In this document: positions 4,871-36,174 of the stretch, piece after piece | Numbering within the stretch: the stretch's first letter is position 1 | Layout of the letters: the number at the start of each line of letters is the position of its first letter | DNA from: Patescibacteria group bacterium | GTDB taxonomy: Bacteria; Patescibacteriota; Microgenomatia; UBA8517 | NCBI GenBank assembly: GCA_036846005.1 | Contig: DAIUCV010000003.1 | Span: forward strand, 1 to 46,224 | DNA: 46,224 bases | Direction of reading: 5' to 3' | Program-made: the position numbers and the translations under genes | The notes under the pieces: model-generated | Database searches by the model: none | What the model was told of the DNA's origin: nothing | What the model saw: only the letters and a program-made list of their open reading frames with translations

Positions 4871-5614
4871 CTAATCTGTCCATGGTTTTAAGATTAATTT
4901 GGTTAATATTCGGACAATCCAAGTTATTAATATTGAAGCTATTGTGGTTACAAGTACCGCTGCCATCAAGAGTGGAAATCGGTATTGAGAAACACTCATA
5001 ATAATAACCAGTCCCAATCCCTTGGTCGTTCCCATAAGTTCTCCCACAATTGCCGCAATTACGACACTACTTACCGCAACTTCTATACCTGCAATAAAAT
5101 ATGGTATTGAGCTTGGTAGTTGAAGTTTTGTAAAAAGCTGCCACTTTTTTGCCCGAAGAACAAAAAAACGTTCCAGCTGGTTTTTGTTAACACTGTCAAA
5201 TCCAGCCAGTAAATTAGCCATTATGGGGAAAAAACTGACCAAAATAACTATTACAATCTTAGCTAAGGGGCCATATCCGAAGACCATAAAAAGAATGGGT
5301 GCAATGGCCACAAACGGAACATTTCTGATTGCAATAGTTACAGGTACAATGGTTGTTTTTAAAAAGGGTGCAAAAAGACAAATTAAAGCGAGAGCTACAC
5401 CCACCAGAATGCTAATACCAAATCCCATAACGGCTTCGTAAAGCGTAACTTTGAGGTTATCCAAAATCCACAACCAATTTTTCAAAAGCTCTTGAAAAAT
5501 TATAGAAGGCCGAGGAAATATAAAGCTTACAATTCCGGTTGACCTCAAAATTATTTCAAAAGCGATTGTAACGAGAACGACAAATAAAAATGGGGCTAAA
5601 AACTTATTTTTCAT
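4871..5614 (-). CDS. ABC transporter permease (NitT/TauT-type, BPD_transp_1)
   Basis: Contains about six TM segments. The start was chosen at MKNKFLAPFLF (ATG at 5614), which overlaps the ATPase stop by 11 nt. The longest ORF extends to 5653. Confidence 0.85.
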   Translation of the reverse strand: MKNKFLAPFLFVVLVTIAFEIILRSTGIVSFIFPRPSIIFQELLKNWLWILDNLKVTLYEAVMGFGISILVGVALALICLFAPFLKTTIVPVTIAIRNVPFVAIAPILFMVFGYGPLAKIVIVILVSFFPIMANLLAGFDSVNKNQLERFFVLRAKKWQLFTKLQLPSSIPYFIAGIEVAVSSVVIAAIVGELMGTTKGLGLVIIMSVSQYRFPLLMAAVLVTTIASILITWIVRILTKLILKPWTD

Positions 5615-6380
5615 TTTCCCACCTCCTGATAGCTGTGCGGATAATATTGGCAATGTCGAAAAATTCGTTATTTATTATCCCCTCTTTGCCCATTCTCGGC
5701 CTTGGAAGTGGGATTTTAACAATTTCGCTAACTGATGCTGGTCGTCCCGTAAAAACATAGACCGTATCTGAAAGAACAACCGCCTCTTCGATTTGATGCG
5801 TAATTAATATTGCAGTGGAAATTAGACCGCGAATTTTTAGCTCTTCAACGAACATCCACATTTTTTCTTTAGTTAATGCATCCAAAGAGGCAAATGGCTC
5901 GTCCATTAGTAAAATTCTGGGAGCTGTTATTAAACTTGCTCCGAGGCTTATTCTTTGACGCATTCCTCCGGAAAGTTTGGCTGGTTTGATCTTTGAAAAA
6001 CTAGTCAGTCCGACATTTTTAAGCATTTCATCAGGAGTCATTCGGTCTTTTCCGTTTTTAAGAATCTCAAGCCCCAGGTTTAAATTTGAGGCAGAAGTTC
6101 TCCAAGGTAAAAGATTTCCCTCCTGAAAAATCATATCAACAATCCCTCCCTTTAAATTTATCGGATCTATCCCAAAAATAGATATACCACCCTCCAAAAT
6201 CGCAGGTATCATAGTAGGAATTATTCCTGCAATGATACGAAGGAGGGTGGATTTACCGCAACCAGAAGGGCCTATAAAAGCAATTATCTCCCCTTCTTGG
6301 ATGGATAAAGAGATATTAGAAAGAATTTGTAATTTCCCAAAGGAAAGGTTCAAATTCTTAATCTCTATTGCATTCATCAC
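5604..6380 (-). CDS. ABC transporter ATP-binding protein
   Basis: Has Walker A GPSGCGKST, the signature LSGGMRQR and Walker B LLMDEPF. Confidence 0.95.
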   Translation of the reverse strand: MMNAIEIKNLNLSFGKLQILSNISLSIQEGEIIAFIGPSGCGKSTLLRIIAGIIPTMIPAILEGGISIFGIDPINLKGGIVDMIFQEGNLLPWRTSASNLNLGLEILKNGKDRMTPDEMLKNVGLTSFSKIKPAKLSGGMRQRISLGASLITAPRILLMDEPFASLDALTKEKMWMFVEELKIRGLISTAILITHQIEEAVVLSDTVYVFTGRPASVSEIVKIPLPRPRMGKEGIINNEFFDIANIIRTAIRRWENEK

Positions 6381-6399
6381 ACCCTCCTTATTTATAAAT

Positions 6400-7476
6400 T
6401 TATGGGCTGGGTAGAAAAGAATTGTTAATTACCTCTTCGGCTTTGAAACTAGCCGGAATCTGGCCATACTTGAAAAGAAAGTCGATCATTTCTTGAACTT
6501 TCTCAAGATTTATATAGCCGACTCCATGAAGTTGTGTGTCTTCAGAGGTGGCAATCTTATTTTGTGCTGGAATTCTCCATGCAGCATGTTCCTGGGTCAC
6601 ACCGGGAATAGCCGATGTAATAGTGATTGCTTCTTCGGGATTATCCAGGGTATATTGAAGTCCCTGCATTGATGCTGCTACAAACGCTTTTACCATTTTC
6701 GGATGGGCTTCTATAAAAGCCTGCGTGGTTACGATCACATCGGAATAATAAAACGGCAGATAGTCTGATGCCAGAAACATCTCATAATCAACCCCTTCCT
6801 TTAAACCCTGTTGTTCAAGCATAAAGGGCTGATTGGTTGACCAACCGCAATAGAAATCGCACTGCCCGCTTAGTAAACAATCTGGCGTCCAACCGGCAGG
6901 GATTACTGTAAAATCCGTTCCGGAAACCAAAGGTCCCTTATCACAGACAGCTCCGAGAGCATCCACATACCACTGGGCTTCTGTCTGCATTGCCACCACA
7001 CGTCCTTTAAAATCGCAAGGATTTGTGGCTCTTTTGCCATCTTTAAGGAGACCTATAAAACCGCCCGGTTCATACTGGCTAATTGCCGCAATTGCGACAA
7101 CATCAACTCCTTGTGCATAAGCCTTAAGAACCAAACTTAGAGCGGCGGGGACCCCAAATCGGAGACTATCATCTATACCGTTTATTGCAAATATGGGATC
7201 TATTCCTGTAGATCCGCCTCCAGAAATAAGTGTAACATCGAGTTTTTGACTTGTATAAAAACCTTTCGCCTGTGCAACCTGCAAAGCAACAAATTCATCG
7301 TTGTTTAACCAACCTAAGGGAATTTGGATTTTGGTTAGATTGGTGACCGGTTCTGGAACAGGAGTGATTAATTTCTCAACCTCAACTGTTTTTATAATCG
7401 TAACCGGTGTAGGAGAAGCACAGCTTGCTAATAAAAGTATTGCCAAAACAAATATTAAGATTGTTTTTGTATTCAT
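6400..7476 (-). CDS. ABC substrate-binding lipoprotein, NMT1/THI5-like (NitT/TauT family)
   Basis: Has a lipobox signal, ILLLASC. The NMT1-like periplasmic binding pattern is present. It is the first gene of the SBP-ATPase-permease operon. Confidence 0.8.
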   Translation of the reverse strand: MNTKTILIFVLAILLLASCASPTPVTIIKTVEVEKLITPVPEPVTNLTKIQIPLGWLNNDEFVALQVAQAKGFYTSQKLDVTLISGGGSTGIDPIFAINGIDDSLRFGVPAALSLVLKAYAQGVDVVAIAAISQYEPGGFIGLLKDGKRATNPCDFKGRVVAMQTEAQWYVDALGAVCDKGPLVSGTDFTVIPAGWTPDCLLSGQCDFYCGWSTNQPFMLEQQGLKEGVDYEMFLASDYLPFYYSDVIVTTQAFIEAHPKMVKAFVAASMQGLQYTLDNPEEAITITSAIPGVTQEHAAWRIPAQNKIATSEDTQLHGVGYINLEKVQEMIDFLFKYGQIPASFKAEEVINNSFLPSP

Positions 7477-25810: not shown

Positions 25811-25916
25811 CTTTTATAACTATTGGGTAACGTTAAAACAATTAGCAAGAATAAACTTCGACCCATAAAACTTACTTGCCCTCTTAAGCTATTTGCTATA
25901 CGCAATTTTTAATAAT

Positions 25917-27281
25917 ATGGAAGGTATAGATAAAAAACAAGTTTGGTTAGATTTTCTGGAGAATATCAAAGTTTCTGTATCCCCAGCTATATTTACAACG
26001 TGGTTCTCTCAAACCCACCTAACCAAGCTGGATAAAATAGATGATAAAAATATTGTCGAAGTAGGATGCCCTTCACCTTTTGTAAAAACAACTATTGAAA
26101 GTAGATATTACGGACTTATTCAGGATTCGCTTTCAAGCATTTTAGGTAATAAATGCGATTTAATATTCGTGGTTAAGGCAAATCCTAATCCTAAAATAAA
26201 TAACGGTAGTCCTTCACCACTTTTTGAGCAGGGAAAAGAAGACACCAACCTAGATTCCCAAATCAAGAATTCCCGTTTAAGAAAAAATTTTACTTTTGCC
26301 AATTTTGCTGTATCTTCTTCTAATCAAATGGCTTGGGCTGCTGCCGATGCCGTTTCACAAAATCCCGGAACTGCTTACAACCCTCTTTTTATCTGGGGAG
26401 GTGTTGGGGTAGGGAAAACCCATTTAATGAATTCCGTGGGGTATGAAATTCTTAAAAAAGGAAGTGATAAAAAAGTGCATCTTTGTACAGGTGAGGATTT
26501 TACTAATGATATTGTTGAGGGTATTAGAAAAAAGACAACGCAAAACTTCAGAAACAAATATAGAAAATTAGATGCACTTCTAATTGATGATATTCAATTT
26601 ATTGCCGGAAAAGATGCTGTTCAGGAAGAATTTTTCCACACTTTTAATGCAATTGTGGCAGCAGGAGGACAAATTATCCTTACTTCCGACAAATCTCCTT
26701 CTGATATCTCAAAATTAGAAGAAAGATTAAGAAGTAGGTTTGAAGCAGGATTAATTGTAGATATCGCCCCTCCAGATTTTGAGCTGAGATGCGCCATTAT
26801 TCAAATTAAATCTAAGGAAAAAGAAATTGATCTTCCTATGGATCTGGTACAACTTGCTGCTGGAAACTTGGATTCTGCAAGAAAAATTGAGGGTTTTTTA
26901 GTTAGACTATTTTCGGAAACAAAGTTAAAAAAAATTGTCATATCAGAAGATTTAATAAAATCAATATTGGGTAAAAACGAGGCTGAGAAATTGGATAATA
27001 AGCGGACGCCGGATGAAATACTAAATGCTGTCTGTAAACATTTTTCGATAGGGAAAAGGTCTATTTTAGGTCAGTCAAGAATAAGATCTTTCGCACTTCC
27101 CAGACAAATTCATATGTATATTTTAAGAACATCTCTCGGTATGCCTTATGAAGAAATAGGAAGAGTAGTGGGGGATAGAGACCATACTACGGTTATGCAC
27201 GCGGTTGATAAAATTACCACTCTGGTCTCAAACAATGTGCAAATACGTGAGGATATAGAGGGGATAAAAAGTAAGGTTTGA
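25917..27281 (+). CDS. dnaA: Chromosomal replication initiator DnaA
   Basis: Has Walker A GGVGVGKTHL, the AAA+ region and a C-terminal DNA-binding helix (DHTTVMHA). The longest ORF begins at TTG 25893. The ATG at 25917 (MEGIDKKQVW) is preferred. Confidence 0.95.
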   Translation: MEGIDKKQVWLDFLENIKVSVSPAIFTTWFSQTHLTKLDKIDDKNIVEVGCPSPFVKTTIESRYYGLIQDSLSSILGNKCDLIFVVKANPNPKINNGSPSPLFEQGKEDTNLDSQIKNSRLRKNFTFANFAVSSSNQMAWAAADAVSQNPGTAYNPLFIWGGVGVGKTHLMNSVGYEILKKGSDKKVHLCTGEDFTNDIVEGIRKKTTQNFRNKYRKLDALLIDDIQFIAGKDAVQEEFFHTFNAIVAAGGQIILTSDKSPSDISKLEERLRSRFEAGLIVDIAPPDFELRCAIIQIKSKEKEIDLPMDLVQLAAGNLDSARKIEGFLVRLFSETKLKKIVISEDLIKSILGKNEAEKLDNKRTPDEILNAVCKHFSIGKRSILGQSRIRSFALPRQIHMYILRTSLGMPYEEIGRVVGDRDHTTVMHAVDKITTLVSNNVQIREDIEGIKSKV

Positions 27282-27534
27282 GGATAATTAATAATTAATA
27301 TCCACTTATCCACAATTATTTGGGAATTGTCCACAATTCTATCCACATCTTGTTTATATTTAATATTAACAATTTAATTCGAGCGTAATCGAGAGTAAAT
27401 ATCCACTTATCAACACTCACTACTACTAGTACTACTATTTAAATAAGTAAAAACGTAAAAGAGAAAAAACTCAATAAATTAATTTCTTAATTCCTCTTGC
27501 TCTTTTTGTTATTCACTTTTATACTCTGACTACC
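27282..27534. other. Predicted chromosomal replication origin (oriC) in the dnaA-dnaN spacer
   Basis: DnaA boxes are TTATCCACA at 27306-27314, TTGTCCACA at 27327-27335, CTATCCACA at 27339-27347 and TTATCAACA at 27407-27415. A composite AATATCCACTTATC(C/A)ACA occurs twice, at 27297-27314 and 27398-27415. An AT-rich tract follows from about 27420 to 27530. Confidence 0.8.
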
Positions 27535-28635
27535 GTGAAGCTTCAAGTTTTACAAGAAGAACTGTCTAAAGCATTAAGTTTAGCTAATAGATTTGCATCT
27601 GCAAAAGCACAACTTCCAGTTCTTGGTAATATTTTATTTTCTGCTAAAAAAGGTAAATTACTTATTTCTTCCACAAATCTTGAGATTTCAATCAATATTG
27701 CTATCGGGGCAAAAGTAGAAACTGAAGGTGATATCACTATACCGGCTAAAGTAATAACGGATATTATTACTAATTTAAATCCTGAACAAATCAATCTGGT
27801 TTCTAAGGAAGAGAATCTAAATATCACAAATAGTGAATTTGAATCAACTGTTTCGGGTATGAATGCATTGGATTTTCCTGCTATTCCCAAAAGAATGGAA
27901 AGGGTAGATTTATCCATCCCCAAAGATGAATTAGCCAAAGCGTTATCTTTAGTTTTGTTTGCAGTCTCATCCGATGAAACAAGACCGATTTTGACAGGGG
28001 TTTTATTTATTTGTAAAAAAGGAGAACTAACTTTGGTTGCAACCGACGGATATCGATTATCCCACGTTGTACTTAAAAATAGCTCTATAACTAAAACTTT
28101 TAAATTTATATTACCTAAAGCCGTGTTGGGAGAATTGACAAGACTTCCTTCTGATGGTGATGTTGAATTTTTCTTTGACGAAACTAATAATCAGGCTGTA
28201 TTTAAATCGGAAAATATTATTTTATCTTCAAGGGTATTAGAAGGGGAATTTCCGGAATATCAAAAGATTATTCCCAAAGAATTCATCTTGAAAATAGCAG
28301 CGGATAAAGAAGATCTGATACAGGCGGTAAAACTGGCGTCTGTATTTGCCAGAGATTCTGCGAATATAGTTAAAATGAATATAAAAAGTGGAAAACTGGA
28401 ATTTAATACAGAAAGCCAATTATCAGGAAAACAGAAAACAAGAATAGAAGCAAAAATAGATGGAGAGGATTTAGAAATTGCATTTAACTACCGCTTTTTG
28501 GAGGAAATTTTGCAGGTTATAGAAGGTGAAGATGTATCGATGGAATTTTCAGGTTCAAGTTCGCCAGCAGTATTTACCTACCCTAAGGATACGAATTTTC
28601 TTCATATCATAATGCCAGTTAAACTTCAGGACTAA
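27535..28635 (+). CDS. dnaN: DNA polymerase III beta sliding clamp
   Basis: GTG start. The 366-aa protein has beta-clamp three-domain length and pattern. It occupies the canonical position after dnaA. Confidence 0.93.
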   Translation: MKLQVLQEELSKALSLANRFASAKAQLPVLGNILFSAKKGKLLISSTNLEISINIAIGAKVETEGDITIPAKVITDIITNLNPEQINLVSKEENLNITNSEFESTVSGMNALDFPAIPKRMERVDLSIPKDELAKALSLVLFAVSSDETRPILTGVLFICKKGELTLVATDGYRLSHVVLKNSSITKTFKFILPKAVLGELTRLPSDGDVEFFFDETNNQAVFKSENIILSSRVLEGEFPEYQKIIPKEFILKIAADKEDLIQAVKLASVFARDSANIVKMNIKSGKLEFNTESQLSGKQKTRIEAKIDGEDLEIAFNYRFLEEILQVIEGEDVSMEFSGSSSPAVFTYPKDTNFLHIIMPVKLQD

Positions 28636-28636
28636 C

Positions 28637-29851
28637 TTAAAAAGACAATAAAATTTTGTTGAGAAAACCCCTTTTATCAAGTAGATATAATGTATTGTTT
28701 GATATTCCAATTACTTCTTGAACAGATATATTGGTGGAAGGATTAGTGAAGTTGATAGGATACTTGGTAAAGTTTGTAGAATTTAAGCCATAAAACTGTA
28801 TTTTGTTTTGTAGTGTCTTAATAATTAGTAAATTTTCATCACTTATCCAGGCAATGTGTTCAGAAAATTCCGAGGATACTGATTTCTGAGCAAGACTCTC
28901 TAAATTAATAAGAGTAAGAGAATTAGATTTTTGGACAGCTAGAAAGCTATTACCCGGAGAAAGAGCGTAATTATTACCCACAATAGATAATACTGTTTTA
29001 TTTTGAGTAATATTAAATAAAGTTATTTTACTTTCATCAAGAGCATCAACCTTATCAAATAAAAGTAAGAGATTGTCGGTGACAACCCCTATTTTAGATG
29101 CTTTAATTCTGGTAATTTGTCTGGGTTGTAAATTTGTGGTATCTGTTACAAAAAGAGTAGACGACCTTGTTTTATAATCGAATTTTCCAATAAGATACAT
29201 ACTTTTGTTATCCGTACTCAGATGCGCATACATAATAGGAGTAATGCTTGAGATATCGATTTTTTGTGTTAGTTTATTTGACTGGGTATCGAAAACAAGT
29301 ATTTCGTTAATATTCTTGCGATCTACAAAAGTGATTAAAGGTTCAGAATATGAATAGAATGAAAGATTGCCTTCGTAAAGTGTGTTTACCTTATCGTTAA
29401 CTATAGAAACCAGTCGGGAGTTATTAACATCATAGGCAATTAAAACACCGTTGGTGTACAAGTTGACATCAGATATAAATGTTTGGGATATTGTCTCAGT
29501 TTTTTTAATTTCAATTTGGGTAATATCTCCCTTTATATTTTCTAGAGTTATATCAATATTAGTATTACTTTTAAGGTCAACCTCCTTATTAACGTTTATG
29601 TAGTTTGGTTTTGAAATTACAATTTCATGAGTACCTTTAGGTAGTTTTTTAGAGAAGTTGTTTATAGAAGAATACTTGTTGTCGACAAGAATTTCAGCTC
29701 CAGAAGGTTGAACATTAATATTTAATAAATATTGTTTCTGAATTAAATTTCTAATAATAAAAAGAATTAATAAGAAGAGAATAACCAAAATACCAGCAGA
29801 CAAAACCCTATTGGTCTTTATTTTTAGATATAACGTTTTTATCAAATACAT
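28637..29851 (-). CDS. Bitopic membrane protein with PEGA domain and a repetitive beta-rich ectodomain (last gene of the T4SS-like operon)
   Basis: An N-terminal TM is followed by the PEGA pattern INVQPSGAEILVDN...LPKGTHEIVISKPNY. The gene overlaps the upstream gene by 10 nt. Confidence 0.7.
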   Translation of the reverse strand: MYLIKTLYLKIKTNRVLSAGILVILFLLILFIIRNLIQKQYLLNINVQPSGAEILVDNKYSSINNFSKKLPKGTHEIVISKPNYINVNKEVDLKSNTNIDITLENIKGDITQIEIKKTETISQTFISDVNLYTNGVLIAYDVNNSRLVSIVNDKVNTLYEGNLSFYSYSEPLITFVDRKNINEILVFDTQSNKLTQKIDISSITPIMYAHLSTDNKSMYLIGKFDYKTRSSTLFVTDTTNLQPRQITRIKASKIGVVTDNLLLLFDKVDALDESKITLFNITQNKTVLSIVGNNYALSPGNSFLAVQKSNSLTLINLESLAQKSVSSEFSEHIAWISDENLLIIKTLQNKIQFYGLNSTNFTKYPINFTNPSTNISVQEVIGISNNTLYLLDKRGFLNKILLSF

Positions 29852-32424
29852 AATTGGCTTGGGTCAGTACAATTTCCTAAATTAAATTTGTCTTCAAAAT
29901 CCGCCTGTGGACAGATATCACCTGCACCATCGAAATCAAAACCTCCCGTGCTTATGCCAAAGTGTACATGTTCACCGTGTGCGTTTCCAGTTGTGTTAGT
30001 TGTCGCTATTACCTGACCACTGCTTACTTGTTGACCCAGGGTTACAAATATTTGACAGTTGTGTGAGTATAAATATCTTCTTCCGTCATTTCCATTTAAA
30101 ATAATATAGTTTCCCCCGGCAGCAGAGAAATCATCTTTCCAAATGTTGACGTAAGATATTGTTCCACTGGTATAGGCAACCAAAGGTTGATGTTCTGACT
30201 GGGGGAAGATATCAACATTATTCTTGTGATTCCAGTGATAACAAGCATAATTTGTATTCACACCAGGAGCTACGGGGAAAGCGTATTGATTATCGCTGGA
30301 AAAAATGACGCCGGTTACATCGGGCGGTGTACCTCCTGTGACATTGTCTATACAATCGCCTTCTTCTCCGGCGAATTCAGATCGGGGAACAACATATCCG
30401 CTTGTATTAATGATGTAGATGGTAATTATTAAAAACAATATTACGCAAAAACCTATTATTAGAGGTTTGATAATAACATCTAGAGTAAGCTCGGTTAATG
30501 ATCTAAAAAGGTTGGAGCGGCGAAACAATTTAGTTCTTCTGAAAAAACGATACAGACTACGAGCAGCAAGAAGACTGATGGGGATAGCCAAAACAGGGGA
30601 GTTTTCTTTTACCCAAGTTTTAATTTTATTCCAGTTTTTCCTAATGAATTCAACAATTGCTGAAAGAACCAGGACTATTAACGATACCAGCCAGGTAGGT
30701 ATTGCCGCGAGAACCGCAAACACTCCTCCTGCAGCTTTACCACCTGCTGTAAGAGCTGCAGTTGTACCTGCAGCTACTGGTTTTGAGGATATTACTTTAT
30801 ACAACAAAGAACCGATTTTATCGATAATGGGTCCTTTTATTGGTTTCTTGCCAATCCATACGACAAATTTTGAAGCCCCTTCGGAAAATACATTTCCTAA
30901 GGTAAACTTTCCTAAACCTGCTTGGATACCACCGAGATTAATAGATGCCGCCTCGATCATTCCCACTTCGCTTGTGTAGACAACCTTTGCCACCCAGAAA
31001 CTTTTGGGAAACGCAGAACTAAATAATGGTCTCATTAATCCGACACCCTTCCAGGCTATTCCAGGTAATGAACCAGGAGTAACCCCCGCAACTGCCGGCA
31101 GATATAAATTTGAAGCACCCGATGTCAGAAGAGGAATGTTTATTGCTGTCCAGCGCGTTATTAAACTCGTTTGGGATAATCCGACAACTGCTCCAGCTGC
31201 TGCGGTATAGGGGAGAATGCCTCCCGTTATAGATTTAAGTTTAGTAATTGGTTTATACCAAGAGTATTCTTTAACAATTGCGGAGTAACCACGCCTGCTT
31301 AACGAATTTATATATTCCAGATCTCCTCTTTGGATTGCTTTGTAAACCTGATTTCTAATATTGGCGGTTGTTTTCCAATAATCGATCATGGATTGTACGT
31401 CTGCTTGGTAGTTGGTTTGATCAGTGGGTTCTTCTGATATCTCGTGGTCTCTTGTTTTTTGGGTATTGTAGAAGTAAGTGGAGAGATTAGGTCCGATAAC
31501 CGGTGAAAGTAAGTTTTCGGATGTTACATCGTCCAATTCTTCTTCAAGAGCTATTCCTTGTGCGGCTTCTGAAATCTGTTTTCTGACTTCTTCATCAGGG
31601 ATAATTTTTACCAAATTAGGATCATTGGGATTAGCCAGGGAAGATAAAATTTCCAAGATATTAACTTGAGCCTGACCTACTGAATTATTATCTATTTTTA
31701 AAAGTTTGTCGGTAAAATCGATTGCTACAATTCTGGCAACATAATCAAGTTGTTCCGGAGAAAGGTTGTTTTTAACTTCTTTTGGGGCATACTTTAGTAT
31801 TTCTTGCACTCTTCTTTCGACAAACGAGTTGGGATCACTTCGAGCTTCATTAAGATAGTTTTCCAGTCTCACACGATCCTCTTCAGAGACTGTATTTGAT
31901 TCTGGGGGTTCTGGGGAGTTTAAGTAAACAATCTTGGGAATTACTGCAGGAGGTGGTGTTTTAACAACCTCTTTGATAACAGGCTTTTCGGTTGCAACCG
32001 GTTGAACCTCCTTATTGAGCAATTCTTTAGGTTTAGGAATCTTTTTGTTTTTACCCTTAAAATCAAGAATATTTTCCGTAACGTTATATAACACATCTTC
32101 TTTCTCATCGGTTGCTAAATTCTTAACACGTTCCATTTCTTTAGCAGCATCAAGAATTTCCTGCGCAGGCATATCACTTTCAACACCCTTATCGATAAGT
32201 TCAATCCAATAATCCAACACCATTAAGCTATCGGAGATTTCATTGGTGTCTGTTATGAGAAAAACGTATTTTAAGAAAAGCTGTTTGCTATACCCGTCGT
32301 AAGAATTGCTGAAGGGTTTAGTGATAGCCACATCAGGGGGATAAAAATAGGCAGGGTAAAAAATCCTAATCCCTTCACGAATCCACTCTATCCTTTTTCT
32401 TGAAAATACTATTGAATCATTCAT
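29842..32424 (-). CDS. 860-aa membrane protein with C-terminal M23-like peptidase domain (cell-wall hydrolase of the T4SS-like cluster)
   Basis: The C-terminus has NAHGEHVHFGIS (HxH) and LYSHNCQIFVTLGQQVSSGQVIA. The Gly/Ala-rich hydrophobic middle contains TM segments. The N-terminal roughly 380 aa match nothing recognised. The gene overlaps virB4 by 8 nt. Confidence 0.7.
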   Translation of the reverse strand: MNDSIVFSRKRIEWIREGIRIFYPAYFYPPDVAITKPFSNSYDGYSKQLFLKYVFLITDTNEISDSLMVLDYWIELIDKGVESDMPAQEILDAAKEMERVKNLATDEKEDVLYNVTENILDFKGKNKKIPKPKELLNKEVQPVATEKPVIKEVVKTPPPAVIPKIVYLNSPEPPESNTVSEEDRVRLENYLNEARSDPNSFVERRVQEILKYAPKEVKNNLSPEQLDYVARIVAIDFTDKLLKIDNNSVGQAQVNILEILSSLANPNDPNLVKIIPDEEVRKQISEAAQGIALEEELDDVTSENLLSPVIGPNLSTYFYNTQKTRDHEISEEPTDQTNYQADVQSMIDYWKTTANIRNQVYKAIQRGDLEYINSLSRRGYSAIVKEYSWYKPITKLKSITGGILPYTAAAGAVVGLSQTSLITRWTAINIPLLTSGASNLYLPAVAGVTPGSLPGIAWKGVGLMRPLFSSAFPKSFWVAKVVYTSEVGMIEAASINLGGIQAGLGKFTLGNVFSEGASKFVVWIGKKPIKGPIIDKIGSLLYKVISSKPVAAGTTAALTAGGKAAGGVFAVLAAIPTWLVSLIVLVLSAIVEFIRKNWNKIKTWVKENSPVLAIPISLLAARSLYRFFRRTKLFRRSNLFRSLTELTLDVIIKPLIIGFCVILFLIITIYIINTSGYVVPRSEFAGEEGDCIDNVTGGTPPDVTGVIFSSDNQYAFPVAPGVNTNYACYHWNHKNNVDIFPQSEHQPLVAYTSGTISYVNIWKDDFSAAGGNYIILNGNDGRRYLYSHNCQIFVTLGQQVSSGQVIATTNTTGNAHGEHVHFGISTGGFDFDGAGDICPQADFEDKFNLGNCTDPSQLCI

Positions 32425-34378
32425 TCTTATTTACTGTTTGAACAGAAGGATTAATATTTGTATCTGATTTATTCGCTTGATGGTAATATCCCAATTTTTC
32501 CTGAGGTTTGGTGGTTATTATCTTATGTTCTTCTTGTGAAGCCACAACTCTAATCGGGGCATGATGGGGACCAGCGAAAAATATACCCTCTCCAATATTT
32601 GCAGCCAAAAGAAGCTGTTTTTCTCCCTGGGAAAGATAGAAAACTTCTGCTATTCTATCGATTGCTGCAGGGGATTGTTTTAATAGAAGTCTTAGAGAGC
32701 TATTAGTTACTATTGCTTTACCGATATCCTGATTTAGAAAATCTTCAACGTCTTGGGTAATGGTGGTTAAACCCAGGAAGTATTTTCTGGCCCTTTTTAC
32801 AACACTCCACAGAAATTGGGCTGAGTCGGGATATCTCATCATATGCCAGGCTTCATCAACAATCAAAAGTCTTCTTTTTAAATCTCTTTGCACCCTAGTC
32901 CAAATAAAATCTAATACCATGAACATCGCGATGGGTCTTAAAGCTTCCTGCATGTCTTTTACGCTAAAAACTGTAAAAGGATTATTGATATTAATGTTTG
33001 TTTGTCTATCAAAGATTCCCACAAAGCTTCCTCTAACAAATTTTTCAATCCTTGCCGCCAAATCCATGGCATCAGGGGTCTCCATTCCTACCAGGGTTTT
33101 ATATAAATCTTCCATCAAAGGAGCCTCCCTTTTTTGAGTTGTAGGATCTTGGGTAATACCCTTACCGCGATAGGTGGCAATTAAGGCTCTATCCAGAAGA
33201 GCTTCCTGTATAGGATTTAACTGTCCCATAATGACTTTGAAAAAGGAATGCAAAGTAAGAATTTTTAATCCTAACTGATTTTCTCCTTCGGTATAAATTT
33301 GGGAAAGATCAAAAGGGTTAATTTTAGAAGAAGATCCGAAGGAAAAAGATATAAATTCTCCTCCCACGGCCTCAGCTATTGTTTTATATTCAGATTCCGG
33401 GTCAATTACTATAACTTCAGTTCCGAGCATTAGGCTGCGTATAGATTCGAGTTTAACAAAATAAGATTTTCCTGCTCCTGAGGTAGCGAAAATCGTCATA
33501 TTGGCGTTTTCAAGAGAGAATCTGTCGAAAATAATAAACGATTCGTTTTGTGAATTAATTCCGTATAAAACTCCTTTGTCACTGGAAAGTTCAGCAGAAG
33601 TCAGGGGAAAAGTAGTCGAAAGAGAAGTTGTATCCATGTTTCTGGTTATCGCAAGCTTGTCCAATCCGAAAGGAACTGTTGATAGAAAGCCGTTTTCGCA
33701 ATCAAGAGCGGCGTGTTTGGCAACAATCAAAAGTGAACCCAGGGTAGATTCCACCTGTCTGGTTATGTGATTTAATTCCTCAAGACTTGCGGCAGGTATG
33801 GTTATATAAAAAGAGAATTGGTAAAACCTTTCAGAACCTTTGACAAGTTGTTCTTGTAAAGACCTTGCATCCTCGAGTTTTGCTTGGGTTGAGGGGTTTA
33901 CTATTTTTCCTCTTTCTAAATCAGTGGCAATTTCTGCTTCCATCTCAGCAATTTTTCTTCGTAAATCATCCAAGACAGTTTTCCCCTCTACAGGGTAAAT
34001 ATAAAAGGAAGTATCAAGTGAACCGTCAAAGTTGATTATTGGTTCAAGCCATCCGGGAGCAACAAATCTGGGATATCCCGCAATGAATAGTGTGCGGAAA
34101 TAGGTGTTGTTTATTTTTATATAGTCAAAATCAATCTCTATTGACTCGGGTGCTAATAAATCGAGAAGATTTAGTTTTCTTTGGTAAAGTTCAATTGCAG
34201 GGTCGATTATCTTAGGCTTTTTGGGTAATCCGTTGAGATTATTTGAGGCTTGGGGTTGTTTTGCTTTTTCGTCTACCTCTTCAGGTTTTGGTGATTCGTA
34301 TAAATGACCCATATTACCACTGGGTGTTTGTGTTATTTGTTGGGGTTGAGTGGTTTTTTTAGTTTTAAATAGATTCAT
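32417..34378 (-). CDS. virB4: VirB4/TrbE/PrgJ-family T4SS ATPase (C-terminal 653-aa part)
   Basis: Has Walker A ATSGAGKSY and Walker B RRLLIVDEAW. TTITQDVEDF and the N-terminal YFRTLFIAGYPRFVAPGWL pattern are typical of VirB4. Confidence 0.9.
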   Translation of the reverse strand: MNLFKTKKTTQPQQITQTPSGNMGHLYESPKPEEVDEKAKQPQASNNLNGLPKKPKIIDPAIELYQRKLNLLDLLAPESIEIDFDYIKINNTYFRTLFIAGYPRFVAPGWLEPIINFDGSLDTSFYIYPVEGKTVLDDLRRKIAEMEAEIATDLERGKIVNPSTQAKLEDARSLQEQLVKGSERFYQFSFYITIPAASLEELNHITRQVESTLGSLLIVAKHAALDCENGFLSTVPFGLDKLAITRNMDTTSLSTTFPLTSAELSSDKGVLYGINSQNESFIIFDRFSLENANMTIFATSGAGKSYFVKLESIRSLMLGTEVIVIDPESEYKTIAEAVGGEFISFSFGSSSKINPFDLSQIYTEGENQLGLKILTLHSFFKVIMGQLNPIQEALLDRALIATYRGKGITQDPTTQKREAPLMEDLYKTLVGMETPDAMDLAARIEKFVRGSFVGIFDRQTNININNPFTVFSVKDMQEALRPIAMFMVLDFIWTRVQRDLKRRLLIVDEAWHMMRYPDSAQFLWSVVKRARKYFLGLTTITQDVEDFLNQDIGKAIVTNSSLRLLLKQSPAAIDRIAEVFYLSQGEKQLLLAANIGEGIFFAGPHHAPIRVVASQEEHKIITTKPQEKLGYYHQANKSDTNINPSVQTVNKNE

Positions 34379-34390
34379 ATATTTAATTTT

Positions 34391-35086
34391 TTAACTTTTT
34401 AGCAAATCCTGCTCGGACATTTTCAACGTAGGAGGTTCGGAATTATAGATACTAAAGAAAAGGTCTATTAGTTGGATGGTTGCTAATTGTTTTAACTTAA
34501 GCCCAAGTCTTCCCGCCTGTCTTATCAGATGATCTCTTTTGGGATAAAGTGCTATTTTAGCCTTCTTAATTACATATGATTTTGGGAAAGGTAAAGGACC
34601 CGCCTTTCTGGTTATAGAGGCAGCCGATTTGGCAACTCCAAGTTCCAAAGCACTAAAAGGAATAATTATGTAGAAACTTTTACCCAGAACATTTTTCTTT
34701 TTAATAGTATCCAGGATAAATTGTCTGTAACCCTGCATTAAATAAGAAAGCTTTGTGTTCTTGAGAGATTTTTGGGCGTTATCCAAATATTTAAGATAAT
34801 CAGAGATATCCTTTCTTTGAGAACGAATAAATATCTGTATTTGGAAAGATAATGAATTAATAAGAGCGGCATATGCTGCAATAACAGCTTGCTGTTCTTT
34901 TTCAGACAAAAGACCAAAATTAAGAGAAGTAGTTTCCATTACGATTGCGGCACCCCCATCTTTATAGAGAATAATATCTTCAGTAATATCCGCTATAGGG
35001 AGATGATTTTGGGAGGTGGAGATAATGGGTTTGTCAGGAATACTTAACAAGGGAATCTTGAAATTTTTTAAACCTGGTGTATTCAT
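34391..35086 (-). CDS. 231-aa soluble protein resembling the extreme N-terminal region of monoderm VirB4 proteins
   Basis: The pattern IADITEDIILYKDGGAAIVMETTSLNFGLLSEKEQQAVIAAYAALINSLSFQIQIFI matches the N-terminus of Gram-positive VirB4 (recalled from memory). The ORF is in the same frame as virB4, separated by one TAA plus four codons. Confidence 0.55.
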   Translation of the reverse strand: MNTPGLKNFKIPLLSIPDKPIISTSQNHLPIADITEDIILYKDGGAAIVMETTSLNFGLLSEKEQQAVIAAYAALINSLSFQIQIFIRSQRKDISDYLKYLDNAQKSLKNTKLSYLMQGYRQFILDTIKKKNVLGKSFYIIIPFSALELGVAKSAASITRKAGPLPFPKSYVIKKAKIALYPKRDHLIRQAGRLGLKLKQLATIQLIDLFFSIYNSEPPTLKMSEQDLLKS

Positions 35087-35091
35087 GTTTT

Positions 35092-36174
35092 TTAGAATTG
35101 AACCGTGCTTGGTTGGTTGGGATTATTGGGTAATACGGATTGAACATTAACAATAGCCTTTGCCTTGATGGCTATAGGTGGGATTATTTCTCCGGTGGTT
35201 TCAAATGTAACAGAATCAAAAATTAAACCATCTTTTTCCGTAATTATTTCGTAGCTTCCATTTTGTAAAGCAGTAACTATCATGAAGTGTCCCACTTTAT
35301 TGCTTCTTAATGCCCTTACAGGACGTCCAGCTGCATCTTTTATCTCAAGGATGGCACCCTCCACAATTTTCCCTTGGGGATCCATTACTTGACCGACAAC
35401 AGTGTTGGGAATAGAAGGGGGATTGGGAGGTGCTGCGTCTAATGAAAATTGAGCCTGCTGACTACCTATTCCTGTCTCGCTTAAGATTGGATTTATCTTG
35501 GTAGTTATATCTGTTTCCTTAACAGGTTCTTCCTGAACGGGTTTTTCTTCGATGACAATTTTTGGCCTAAATCCTTTAGAAGCAATTGTGAAAGATTTGT
35601 TAACAGGAGTTTCGACCGGTTTTATTATTTTGGGTGTGACTTTAGAAACATCTTCTTTTTTTGGTTCTTCCACAACAGTTGGCCGAATGGGTGTTACAGA
35701 GGAAGCAAAGATGTCTTTTACTTTATTTAAAAAATTTTTTTCGTAACCCTCTAAATTTGCAAGAAAACCCATACCCTGCGTAGGTAACTCTCTAAGGTAG
35801 GATTCCAGCACAACTTCACCATGTGGAGCTATTATACTTTCGTCTTTAGGCATAACTGTTTCTTCTTGGAAGAAATTGAGAGTTTCTCCTTCTTTTTTCC
35901 AGAAATAAGCGGTTGGAGAATAGATAGATTTGAAGAAAGCTAAAATCCATTTTGAAAGAGGTCTTTCCTCAAAGGGTAGAAAAGCAAGTGCGGCTCCCAA
36001 AGCGGCAAAAAAGATCATTAATGGCCATTTGACAATAGGATAGATATTGGTGGAATAAATCAAAAGAGAAATTAAAGCACCACCTGCAACTTGAAAAAAT
36101 TGCTTTAAGGTCATGTCTCCGACCAACCTAAACTGGTAAGATGAGATTTGTTGCGGTATGGGATGTTGTTCCAT
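35092..36174 (-). CDS. PrgI/VirB3-like membrane protein fused to a CarboxypepD_reg-like beta-sandwich domain
   Basis: The N-terminus is QISSYQFRLVGDMTLKQFFQVAGG followed by two TM segments, as in PrgI-family proteins. The C-terminus VVGQVMDPQGKIVEGAILEIKD...GSYEIITEKDG is CarboxypepD_reg-like. Confidence 0.65.
   Translation of the reverse strand: MEQHPIPQQISSYQFRLVGDMTLKQFFQVAGGALISLLIYSTNIYPIVKWPLMIFFAALGAALAFLPFEERPLSKWILAFFKSIYSPTAYFWKKEGETLNFFQEETVMPKDESIIAPHGEVVLESYLRELPTQGMGFLANLEGYEKNFLNKVKDIFASSVTPIRPTVVEEPKKEDVSKVTPKIIKPVETPVNKSFTIASKGFRPKIVIEEKPVQEEPVKETDITTKINPILSETGIGSQQAQFSLDAAPPNPPSIPNTVVGQVMDPQGKIVEGAILEIKDAAGRPVRALRSNKVGHFMIVTALQNGSYEIITEKDGLIFDSVTFETTGEIIPPIAIKAKAIVNVQSVLPNNPNQPSTVQF

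What the first reader, a model, noticed from the sequence alone, without database searches (positions are those of the whole stretch)
34376..35086. VirB4 appears split by a single in-frame TAA into 231-aa and 653-aa ORFs
Directly readable: the 231-aa ORF ends with TAA at 34393-34391 on the minus strand. Four sense codons follow (AAA ATT AAA TAT), then the ATG of the 653-aa VirB4 ORF at 34378, all in the same reading frame.

The 231-aa product has the pattern I recall for the extreme N-terminus of monoderm VirB4 proteins (...DI.DGII..KDG....ILE...INF.L.SE.EQ...I..F..FLNSL.F.IQI...). The 653-aa ORF starts with a low-complexity Q/P/K linker. It then continues with the next VirB4 segment (Y.RTL.I..YP....GWL) and the ATPase domain. 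Together they total about 884 aa, which is near the size I recall for full-length Gram-positive VirB4 (roughly 800 aa).

Possible explanations are a genuine two-subunit VirB4, stop-codon readthrough or re-initiation, a sequencing or assembly error, or an inactivating nonsense mutation.
Basis: partly seen in the sequence, partly recalled or inferred. Interest (0 to 1): 0.7.

Follow-up and report, generated by a model that had tools for sequence, protein, structure and literature searches.

The report
Two-gene VirB4 of a Patescibacteria T4SS
The "split" VirB4 is not a broken gene: this bacterial group normally encodes the N-terminal part of the secretion ATPase as its own small protein (TrsD-like), an arrangement already described, and the shared reading frame here is a coincidence.

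Summary
The sequence observation is correct. On the minus strand a 231-aa ORF ends at TAA 34393-34391, 12 nt follow, and the ATG at 34378 opens a 653-aa VirB4 ATPase ORF in the same frame.

The 231-aa protein is homologous to the VirB4 N-terminus. Evidence comes from NCBIfam VirB4 and TrsD models, Foldseek hits to R388 TrwK/VirB4, and one relative with a fused 860-aa gene.

The split is inherited, not a lesion:
- All 35 related species genomes examined keep the pair adjacent; 34 have two genes.
- Three further close relatives (77-82% identity) are also split and out of frame.
- The ATPase frame relative to the N gene is +2 in 17, +1 in 15 and 0 in 4 of 36 loci (35 relatives plus the window). 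Thirteen have an ATGA stop/start overlap.

So the in-frame TAA is chance. It is not a nonsense mutation, an assembly error or a readthrough signal.

The arrangement matches TrsD (227 aa) plus TrsE (672 aa) of staphylococcal plasmid pSK41 in gene order, sizes and split point. It is already published for Patescibacteria (Microb Genom 2025, PMC12102498).

The locus is a chromosomal T4SS next to dnaA/dnaN, with seven pilin genes. Verdict: real, functional, already known; low interest.

The parts
35092..36174 (-). PrgI-family (VirB3-like) membrane protein, 360 aa, with a C-terminal CarboxypepD_reg-like domain. It is encoded 5 nt upstream of the 231-aa gene.
   Evidence: Pfam PrgI 2.3e-06 (28.5 bits, cutoff 27), residues 5-87. 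The same gene sits upstream in relatives L011, L037, L039 and L040.
34391..35086 (-). TrsD-like / 'TraC-like' (PF26593) protein, 231 aa. It is a stand-alone homologue of the first part of the VirB4 N-terminal domain.
   Evidence: NCBIfam hits: VirB4_plasma positions 104-233/894 (7e-07), TrsD/TraD 17-142/201 (9.3e-06), CD1110 2-130/752 (2e-03). 2350 homologues; the best 120 are all 182-253 aa. AF2 model pLDDT 71. The top 11 Foldseek PDB hits are all TrwK/VirB4. hhalign against pSK41 TrsD gives E 9.3e-05 over 179 columns.
34379..34390 (-). 12-nt A/T-rich spacer (AAAATTAAATAT) between the TAA and the ATG. It is in frame by coincidence and has no Shine-Dalgarno motif.
   Evidence: The same spacing occurs only in the 94%-identical twin L001. 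Other loci range from a 26-nt overlap to a 72-nt gap.
32417..34378 (-). VirB4-type ATPase, 653 aa. Residues 1-53 form a Q/P/K-rich linker. Residues ~54-290 are the second part of the VirB4 N-terminal region. The P-loop domain carries Walker A SGAGKS (residues 300-305, window 33481-33464) and Walker B VDEAW (residues 507-511, window 32860-32846).
   Evidence: NCBIfam conju_CD1110 378.3 bits (cutoff 325), positions 180-735/752. Pfam P-loop_TraG 8e-27, AAA_10 and DUF87. BLASTP against pSK41 TrsE: 2e-44, residues 37-620 vs 7-626. Motif coordinates.
29842..32424 (-). 860-aa protein with a C-terminal M23 peptidase domain, a probable cell-wall hydrolase component of the T4SS. Its start overlaps the ATPase stop by 8 nt.
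   Evidence: Pfam Peptidase_M23 4.5e-15. An M23 protein occupies the same position in L039 and L040. pSK41 has the membrane protein TrsF and the CHAP hydrolase TrsG at this position.
40745..42940 (-). 731-aa protein with a weak lysozyme-like (SLT_3) C-terminal match. It may be a VirB1-like component of the same locus.
   Evidence: Pfam SLT_3 1.2e-04, 22.9 bits, below the cutoff of 27.
42979..45573 (-). Seven tandem small genes (104-133 aa) encoding VirB2-like T4SS pilins.
   Evidence: Pfam T4SS_pilin in all seven, E from 1e-10 to 9e-04; four (41.9, 40.8, 40.0 and 27.3 bits) reach the 26.6-bit cutoff, one (26.5 bits) falls just short and two (20.4, 19.8 bits) are clearly below.

Best explanation
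The two ORFs are two genuine, separately translated subunits of one VirB4-type secretion ATPase in the chromosomal type IV secretion system of a Patescibacteria (Microgenomates/Woesebacteria-like) bacterium.

The 231-aa TrsD-like protein carries the first part of the VirB4 N-terminal domain. The 653-aa protein carries a short disordered linker, the rest of the N-terminal region and the P-loop ATPase.

The gene order is prgI(virB3-like) - trsD-like - virB4 - hydrolase, with junctions of +5, +12 and -8 nt. Inferred: the genes are co-transcribed and translationally coupled, and the two products reassemble non-covalently. Also inferred, by analogy with the R388 structure: the small subunit docks the ATPase hexamer to the VirB3-like membrane protein, because in R388 VirB3 wraps around the VirB4 N-terminal domain.

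The shared reading frame and the single TAA are an accident of spacer length in this lineage. They are not a lesion or a recoding signal.
For: Homology of the small ORF to the VirB4 N-terminus:
- NCBIfam hits tile the CD1110 VirB4 model: 2-130 for the 231-aa ORF and 180-735 for the 653-aa ORF.
- The fused 860-aa relative in L011 matches VirB4_CagE positions 7-724/792 and VirB4_plasma 103-890/894 in one stretch.
- The top 11 Foldseek PDB hits of the AF2 model are all TrwK/VirB4, probability 0.84-1.0.

Conservation of the split:
- 2350 homologues; the best 120 are all 182-253 aa.
- Among the best 150 of 1645 50%-identity clusters, the domain is always N-terminal. Of the ten longer members scanned, only one, P0145 (787 aa), carries the ATPase.
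- 34 of 35 species genomes have two adjacent genes. Frame offsets are +2 in 17, +1 in 15 and 0 in 4. Thirteen have an ATGA overlap. N-gene stop codons are TAA 19, TGA 13, TAG 4.
- The nearest relatives after the 94% twin (82%, 78% and 77% identity) are split and out of frame.
- Purifying selection: 56 invariant columns across 51 sequences.

Precedent:
- pSK41 has trsC-trsD(227 aa)-trsE(672 aa)-trsF-trsG in the same order and sizes.
- The 653-aa protein aligns with TrsE from near its first residue, so the split point is the same.

Literature:
- TrsD homologues are the most abundant T4SS component found in Patescibacteria, mostly next to virB4. They are stated to be remotely homologous to the VirB4 N-terminus, and the homologue in Ca. 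Southlakia epibionticum ML1 is listed as essential (PMC12102498).
- In R388, VirB3 wraps around the VirB4 N-terminal domain (PMC9259494).
Against: - No direct evidence here that the two proteins bind each other or PrgI. Translational coupling and non-covalent reassembly are inferred.
- The similarity to TrsD is remote: 25.6 bits against a family cutoff of 200, and hhalign probability 59%.
- The structural match to TrwK is modest (E about 1e-2, TMq 0.33-0.45), and the AF2 model has only medium confidence (pLDDT 71).
- No Shine-Dalgarno motif precedes the ATPase start. This is true of nearly all genes in the window.
- In this lineage alone, a fused readthrough isoform cannot be excluded from sequence.
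Confidence: 0.9

Rival explanations
1. A recent nonsense mutation turned a sense codon into TAA in a formerly fused full-length virB4, leaving a pseudogene or crippled system.
For: The two ORFs are in frame with only one stop between them. One relative, L011, carries a fused 860-aa gene.
Against: - The nearest relatives (82%, 78% and 77% identity) and 32 of 36 loci have the two genes out of frame or overlapping, so the split predates this lineage.
- Both ORFs are intact, highly conserved and have their own ATG.
- The 94% twin L001, an independent MAG, has the same layout while the spacer DNA has diverged.
- pSK41 has the same split in a working conjugation system.
Confidence: 0.02
2. A sequencing or assembly error created the TAA, and the real gene is continuous.
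For: None beyond the in-frame geometry. Read data are not available here.
Against: - An independent assembly (L001, DATEXQ010000035.1) has the same TAA + 12 nt + ATG.
- The 231-aa length class is shared by thousands of proteins from independent data sets.
- The split occurs at the homologous place in every relative except one.
Confidence: 0.01
3. Programmed stop-codon readthrough at the TAA produces some fused 884-aa VirB4 in addition to the two separate subunits.
For: The in-frame layout is shared by the window and L001. A fused protein is evidently viable, as in L011 and P0145.
Against: - Frame is not conserved among relatives: 4 of 36 in frame, below the 1-in-3 chance expectation.
- TAA followed by A is, from general knowledge, a strong bacterial terminator context.
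- TAA is the standard stop of this genome, 32 of 44 ORFs.
- The in-frame locus L009 has a second in-frame stop in its spacer.
- No recoding signal is evident in a 12-nt A/T spacer.
Confidence: 0.03
4. The 231-aa protein is an unrelated accessory protein that merely sits upstream of an N-terminally short VirB4.
For: - No hit in the local Pfam-A copy.
- No sequence hit to PDB chains.
- All similarity to VirB4/TrsD models is below the family cutoffs.
Against: - Three independent VirB4/TrsD profiles hit the same region in the right order.
- The fused L011 protein aligns to full-length VirB4 models in a single stretch starting at model position 7.
- The fold search returns only TrwK/VirB4 at the top.
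- Homologues carry precomputed PF26593 'TraC-like'.
- A published statement reports TrsD-VirB4 N-terminus homology.
Confidence: 0.03

Closest known systems
TrsD + TrsE of staphylococcal conjugative plasmids pSK41/pGO1. NCBIfam NF041427 'TrsD/TraD family' also names pIP501 TraD; the pairing with TraE is from my own knowledge.
   Same: - A stand-alone protein of about 230 aa lies directly upstream of a VirB4-type ATPase of about 650-670 aa that lacks the extreme N-terminal segment.
- Same neighbours in the same order: small VirB3-like membrane protein, TrsD, ATPase, membrane protein/cell-wall hydrolase.
- Same split point: the 653-aa protein aligns with TrsE from residue 37 vs 7.
- Profile match of the small proteins over almost their full length.
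   Different: - The sequence relationship of the small protein is very remote: 25.6 bits against the 200-bit family cutoff, 23% identity in hhalign.
- The window locus is chromosomal, next to dnaA/dnaN, and not on a conjugative plasmid.
- It has an M23 rather than a CHAP hydrolase and seven VirB2-like pilin genes.
- No relaxase or coupling protein was seen beside it in the window, though only part of the window was scanned.
Patescibacteria (CPR) T4SS as described by Quinonero-Coronel et al. 2025 (PMC12102498) and studied genetically in Ca. Southlakia epibionticum (Wang et al. 2023, cited there)
   Same: - The components reported as widespread are VirB4, TrsD, PrgI/VirB3, VirB6 and VirB2-like pilins; VirB4, TrsD, PrgI and the pilins were identified in the window, VirB6 was not.
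- TrsD is usually adjacent to virB4.
- The locus is often near the replication origin. The window has dnaA and dnaN 1-8 kb away.
- Homologues are annotated as Woesebacteria, Microgenomates or Patescibacteria.
   Different: Nothing substantive; the window is an instance of it. Points added here are the identical split point with TrsE, the frame and overlap statistics, rare fused variants, and the fold match to TrwK.
Single-chain VirB4 (TrwK of R388, CD1110-family VirB4 of Firmicutes ICEs, Mbov_0397 of mycoplasma ICEs)
   Same: The concatenated 231 + 653 aa covers the same profile positions: CD1110 2-130 plus 180-735 of 752. The fold of the small protein matches TrwK.
   Different: The polypeptide is broken in a disordered linker inside the structurally defined N-terminal domain. 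In TrwK that domain spans residues 15-400 (PMC9259494).

Membership tests
VirB4-like conjugal transfer ATPase, CD1110 family (NF045971): 653-aa ORF | Whole-protein score above the curated cutoff of 325 bits | tested here: met
   378.3 bits, E 7.5e-113, model positions 180-735/752
VirB4-like conjugal transfer ATPase, CD1110 family (NF045971): 653-aa ORF | P-loop NTPase with Walker A and Walker B motifs | tested here: met
   SGAGKS at residues 300-305 and VDEAW at 507-511. Pfam P-loop_TraG, AAA_10 and DUF87 all score above cutoff.
VirB4-like conjugal transfer ATPase, CD1110 family (NF045971): 653-aa ORF | Full-length coverage of the model, including the N-terminal ~180 positions | tested here: not met
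   The 653-aa ORF starts at model position 180. Positions 2-130 are matched by the separate 231-aa ORF.
TrsD/TraD family conjugative transfer protein (NF041427): 231-aa ORF | Score above the curated cutoff of 200 bits | tested here: not met
   25.6 bits, E 9.3e-06, model positions 17-142/201. It is a remote homologue, not a subfamily member by NCBI's threshold.
TrsD/TraD family conjugative transfer protein (NF041427): 231-aa ORF | Stand-alone protein of about 200-230 aa encoded immediately upstream of a VirB4-type ATPase and downstream of a VirB3-like gene | tested here: met
   Window gene order compared with pSK41 trsC-trsD-trsE. The same holds in 34 of 35 relatives.
TrsD/TraD family conjugative transfer protein (NF041427): 231-aa ORF | Homology to the N-terminal portion of VirB4 | tested here: met
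   Stated in the literature: PMC12102498.
Pfam PF26593 'TraC-like' domain: 231-aa ORF | Match to the Pfam model above the gathering score | not testable with these tools
   The local Pfam copy returned no such family for the window protein or for its 94% twin P0001. The precomputed annotation lists PF26593 for P0001 and most homologues. For P0003, P0004 and P0006 it is marked 'weak'.
Patescibacteria chromosomal T4SS (MPF-FATA-like) | Co-located VirB4, TrsD, PrgI/VirB3 and VirB2-like pilins, often near the replication origin | tested here: met
   PrgI, TrsD-like and VirB4. Seven T4SS_pilin genes. dnaA at 25893-27281 and dnaN at 27535-28635. VirB6 was not specifically identified.
Pseudogene split by a nonsense mutation | Close relatives carry an uninterrupted gene, and the downstream piece lacks an independent conserved start | tested here: not met
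   Relatives are split, mostly out of frame or overlapping, and each has its own ATG.
Programmed stop-codon readthrough | Conservation of the in-frame relation and of the stop context across relatives | tested here: not met
   Only 4 of 36 loci are in frame. Stop codons vary (TAA/TGA/TAG) and spacing ranges from -26 to +72 nt.

The most novel reading that the evidence does not exclude
Detaching the first VirB4 N-terminal subdomain as a separate TrsD-like subunit may be functionally exploited rather than neutral. Examples would be a stoichiometry different from the ATPase hexamer, or regulated docking of the ATPase onto PrgI/VirB3 in the growth-essential T4SS of these epibionts. In other lineages the subunit carries Q/N/P-rich tails of about 100 to about 500 residues.

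A narrower variant: in this lineage the in-frame TAA could additionally allow a minor fused isoform.
Probability: 0.1. Interest if true: 0.45.

Novelty: already known. Interest (0 to 1): 0.15.

Why it matters
It matters mainly as a caution for annotation.

An in-frame stop between two halves of a well-known protein looks like a pseudogene or a recoding site. Here it is the normal two-gene form of VirB4 in Patescibacteria and in pSK41/pGO1-type plasmids.

Annotating the small gene as "hypothetical", or calling it too short, hides a conserved T4SS component. The collection's own gene call for this window was 182 aa. The homologue of this component is reported to be essential in the one genetically tractable Patescibacteria strain.

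The comparative data gathered here could guide structural work on monoderm T4SS inner-membrane complexes. These data are the identical split point with TrsE, the rare natural fusions, and the variable disordered tails. They do not change current understanding.

Tried and rejected
- Sequence search of the 231-aa protein against PDB chains found nothing meaningful (best E 0.57, eIF4E). Only the fold comparison found VirB4.
- The local Pfam-A copy gave no family for the 231-aa protein, even at E up to 10. PF26593, listed in the precomputed annotation, appears not to be in that copy.
- Guglielmini et al. 2014 (PMC4027160) does not contain 'TrsD' in its main text. The statement that TrsD is remotely homologous to the VirB4 N-terminus therefore rests on PMC12102498, which cites it, and on my own tests.
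- The 2025 FEMS review (PMC12857230) does not mention TrsD.
- I looked for a Shine-Dalgarno motif upstream of the ATPase start and found none. Nearly every gene in the window lacks one, so this is uninformative.
- Alternative genetic code (TAA as sense): rejected, because TAA ends 32 of 44 long ORFs.
- I ran no further search on a concatenated or complex model.
- I did not run a database search with the 653-aa protein. tblastn on 35 loci already answered the question.
Full report
**1. Observation**

On the minus strand the sequence reads ...CTA AAA AGT TAA AAA ATT AAA TAT ATG AAT CTA... The TAA is at 34393-34391 and the ATG at 34378-34376.

The ORF list gives 35086..34391 (231 aa) and 34378..32417 (653 aa).

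TAA is the ordinary stop codon of this 35.7% GC sequence: 32 of 44 ORFs of at least 100 aa end in TAA.

**2. What the two ORFs are**

The 653-aa product is a VirB4-type ATPase.
- Pfam P-loop_TraG 8e-27, AAA_10 and DUF87.
- NCBIfam conju_CD1110 at 378 bits, above the 325-bit cutoff. It covers only model positions 180-735 of 752.
- Walker A SGAGKS lies at residues 300-305 and Walker B VDEAW at 507-511.

The 231-aa product has no hit in the local Pfam copy and no sequence hit in the PDB. It does match three NCBIfam models:
- VirB4_plasma, positions 104-233/894, E 7e-07.
- TrsD/TraD family, positions 17-142/201, E 9.3e-06.
- CD1110, positions 2-130/752, E 2e-03.

The two ORFs therefore tile a full-length monoderm VirB4 model in the correct order.

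An AlphaFold2 model built from 51 homologues has pLDDT 71 and pTM 0.59. It is an alpha/beta domain with a disordered N-terminal stretch (pLDDT below 50 over about the first 26 residues). The top 11 Foldseek hits in the PDB are all TrwK/VirB4 chains of the R388 T4SS, with probability 0.84-1.0, E about 1e-2 and TMq 0.33-0.45.

One related genome, L011, encodes a continuous 860-aa protein containing both parts. It aligns in a single stretch to TIGR00929 VirB4_CagE (positions 7-724/792) and to VirB4_plasma (103-890/894).

**3. Is the split a lesion, an error, a recoding site or the normal state?**

The 231-aa protein has 2350 homologues at E <= 1e-3 in the 90%-identity protein collection. The best 120 are all 182-253 aa and come from Patescibacteria, Woesebacteria and Microgenomates.

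In the 50%-identity library there are 1645 clusters. In the best 150 the domain always sits at the N-terminus of the protein. Of the ten longer members scanned (332-787 aa), only P0145 (787 aa) carries the ATPase domain. The six longer proteins whose tails I inspected carry Q/N/P/S/T/A-rich low-complexity tails.

I fetched 35 species-representative genomes. For each I located the small gene's stop and the ATPase gene's frame and start.
- All 35 keep the pair adjacent, and 34 have two genes.
- Counting the window, the ATPase frame relative to the small gene is +2 in 17 loci, +1 in 15 and 0 in only 4.
- The 4 in-frame loci are the window, its 94%-identical twin L001, L009 (which has a further in-frame stop and a start 72 nt downstream) and the fused L011.
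- Thirteen loci have the ATGA stop/start overlap typical of translationally coupled genes.
- Other loci overlap by 8-26 nt or have gaps of 1-72 nt.
- The small gene's stop codon is TAA in 19, TGA in 13 and TAG in 4.

The nearest relatives after the twin are all split and out of frame:
- P0003 (82% identity): 1-nt gap.
- P0004 (78%): 23-nt overlap.
- P0006 (77%): ATGA overlap.

Both proteins are strongly conserved. The small protein has 56 invariant columns across 51 sequences. The ATPase is 75-83% identical across most of these loci.

Conclusions:
- The split predates this lineage and is maintained by selection.
- The in-frame arrangement is a coincidence of a 12-nt spacer, shared only with the twin L001.
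- In L001 the spacer and flanks have already diverged at several bases, so it is an independent confirmation of the TAA.
- Nonsense mutation, assembly error and programmed readthrough are each very unlikely.

**4. Context**

The operon on the minus strand runs as follows:
- PrgI-family VirB3-like protein (36174-35092)
- 5-nt gap
- TrsD-like gene
- 12-nt gap
- virB4
- 8-nt overlap
- 860-aa protein with an M23 peptidase domain
- 10-nt overlap
- PEGA-domain protein

Further along the same strand (at higher coordinates) lie a 731-aa protein with a weak lysozyme-like match and seven tandem T4SS_pilin genes. dnaA (25893-27281) and dnaN (27535-28635) lie 1-8 kb away. GroEL, a class I aminoacyl-tRNA synthetase and Sua5/TsaE genes are also present. 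This is therefore a chromosomal, origin-proximal T4SS.

Almost no gene in the window has a Shine-Dalgarno motif. Its absence before the ATPase start is uninformative.

**5. How it most likely works**

Shown:
- There are two conserved genes.
- The small one is homologous to the first part of the VirB4 N-terminal domain.
- The break lies in a disordered linker. Residues 1-53 of the ATPase are Q/P/K-rich here. In other lineages the small protein carries the linker as a long tail.

Inferred:
- The pair is co-transcribed and translationally coupled.
- The two products reassemble non-covalently into a VirB4-like unit.

In the R388 cryo-EM structure the VirB4 N-terminal domain spans residues 15-400. 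VirB3 wraps around it, and it also mediates VirB4 dimerisation (PMC9259494). By analogy, the TrsD-like subunit, encoded directly after the VirB3-like PrgI gene, most likely docks the ATPase hexamer to the membrane platform. That step is an inference and was not tested here.

**6. Comparison with what is known**

pSK41 (NC_005024) has trsC (135 aa), trsD (227 aa, annotated as TrsD/TraD family), trsE (672 aa, DUF87 ATPase), the membrane protein trsF and the CHAP hydrolase trsG. The order matches the window, and the sizes of the small protein and the ATPase match closely. A 14-nt gap separates trsD from trsE, which are in different frames.

The window ATPase aligns with TrsE from residue 37 vs 7 through 620 vs 626 (E 2e-44, 24% identity). 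The split point is therefore the same. The profile of the small protein aligns with TrsD over 179 columns (E 9.3e-05, probability 59%).

The arrangement is already published for Patescibacteria in Microb Genom 2025 (PMC12102498):
- It was the most abundant T4SS component found: 2,272 homologues in 2,221 assemblies, 1,664 of them associated with virB4.
- The TrsD homologue of Ca. Southlakia epibionticum ML1 is listed as essential.
- The paper also notes the frequent origin-proximal location.

By NCBI's threshold the 231-aa protein is not a member of the TrsD/TraD subfamily (25.6 vs 200 bits). It is a remote homologue with the same role in the same gene order. Its relatives carry Pfam PF26593 'TraC-like' in precomputed annotation. 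I could not rerun that model locally.

**7. Verdict**

The feature is real, functional and already known, so interest is low.

Small additions from this analysis are the frame and overlap statistics, the identical split point with TrsE, rare natural fusions (L011, P0145), and the fold match to TrwK.

Noticed in passing
L009:~5580-7265, L014:~5560-7245, L025:~5500-7075 (related loci, not the window): In three Woesebacteria genomes the VirB4 ATPase is interrupted by an in-frame insertion of about 530-560 aa, directly after GAGK of the Walker A motif. The insertion begins with Ser, ends ...HN|S and contains LAGLIDADG-like motifs (LLGLTTSEGH, YFEGDGG). It is a probable intein with a homing endonuclease. 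The window's gene has no such insertion.
   Followed up: partly
window 42979-45573 (-): Seven consecutive small genes (104-133 aa) all match Pfam T4SS_pilin (VirB2-like). The literature describes pilin gene clusters as an unusual feature of Patescibacteria T4SS among monoderms.
   Followed up: partly
window 25893-28635 (+): dnaA and dnaN lie 1-8 kb from the T4SS operon. The locus is therefore chromosomal and next to the presumed replication origin, as reported for many Patescibacteria T4SS loci.
   Followed up: partly
window 34391-35086 (-): The protein collection's own gene call for this window (P0005, 182 aa) starts at internal Met50. Homologues are conserved from about residue 10 onward, so the 231-aa start at 35086 is the better call.
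   Followed up: yes
representative proteins P0217, P0236, P0265, P0169, P0138: In more distant lineages the stand-alone TrsD-like protein carries Q/N/P/S/T-rich disordered C-terminal tails of about 270-500 residues and no ATPase domain. In the window's clade a short linker of this kind sits instead at the N-terminus of the ATPase.
   Followed up: partly
window 36294-38603 (+): A 769-aa ORF is divergently oriented from the T4SS operon and has no Pfam or NCBIfam match. A 639-650-aa gene occupies the equivalent position in L037 and L040. Function unknown.
   Followed up: no
L011:2628-5210: This is the single fused 860-aa trsD-virB4 gene among the 35 species genomes. It could be a genuine secondary fusion or a MAG consensus artefact. 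A second fused form (P0145, 787 aa) exists in the 50%-identity library.
   Followed up: partly
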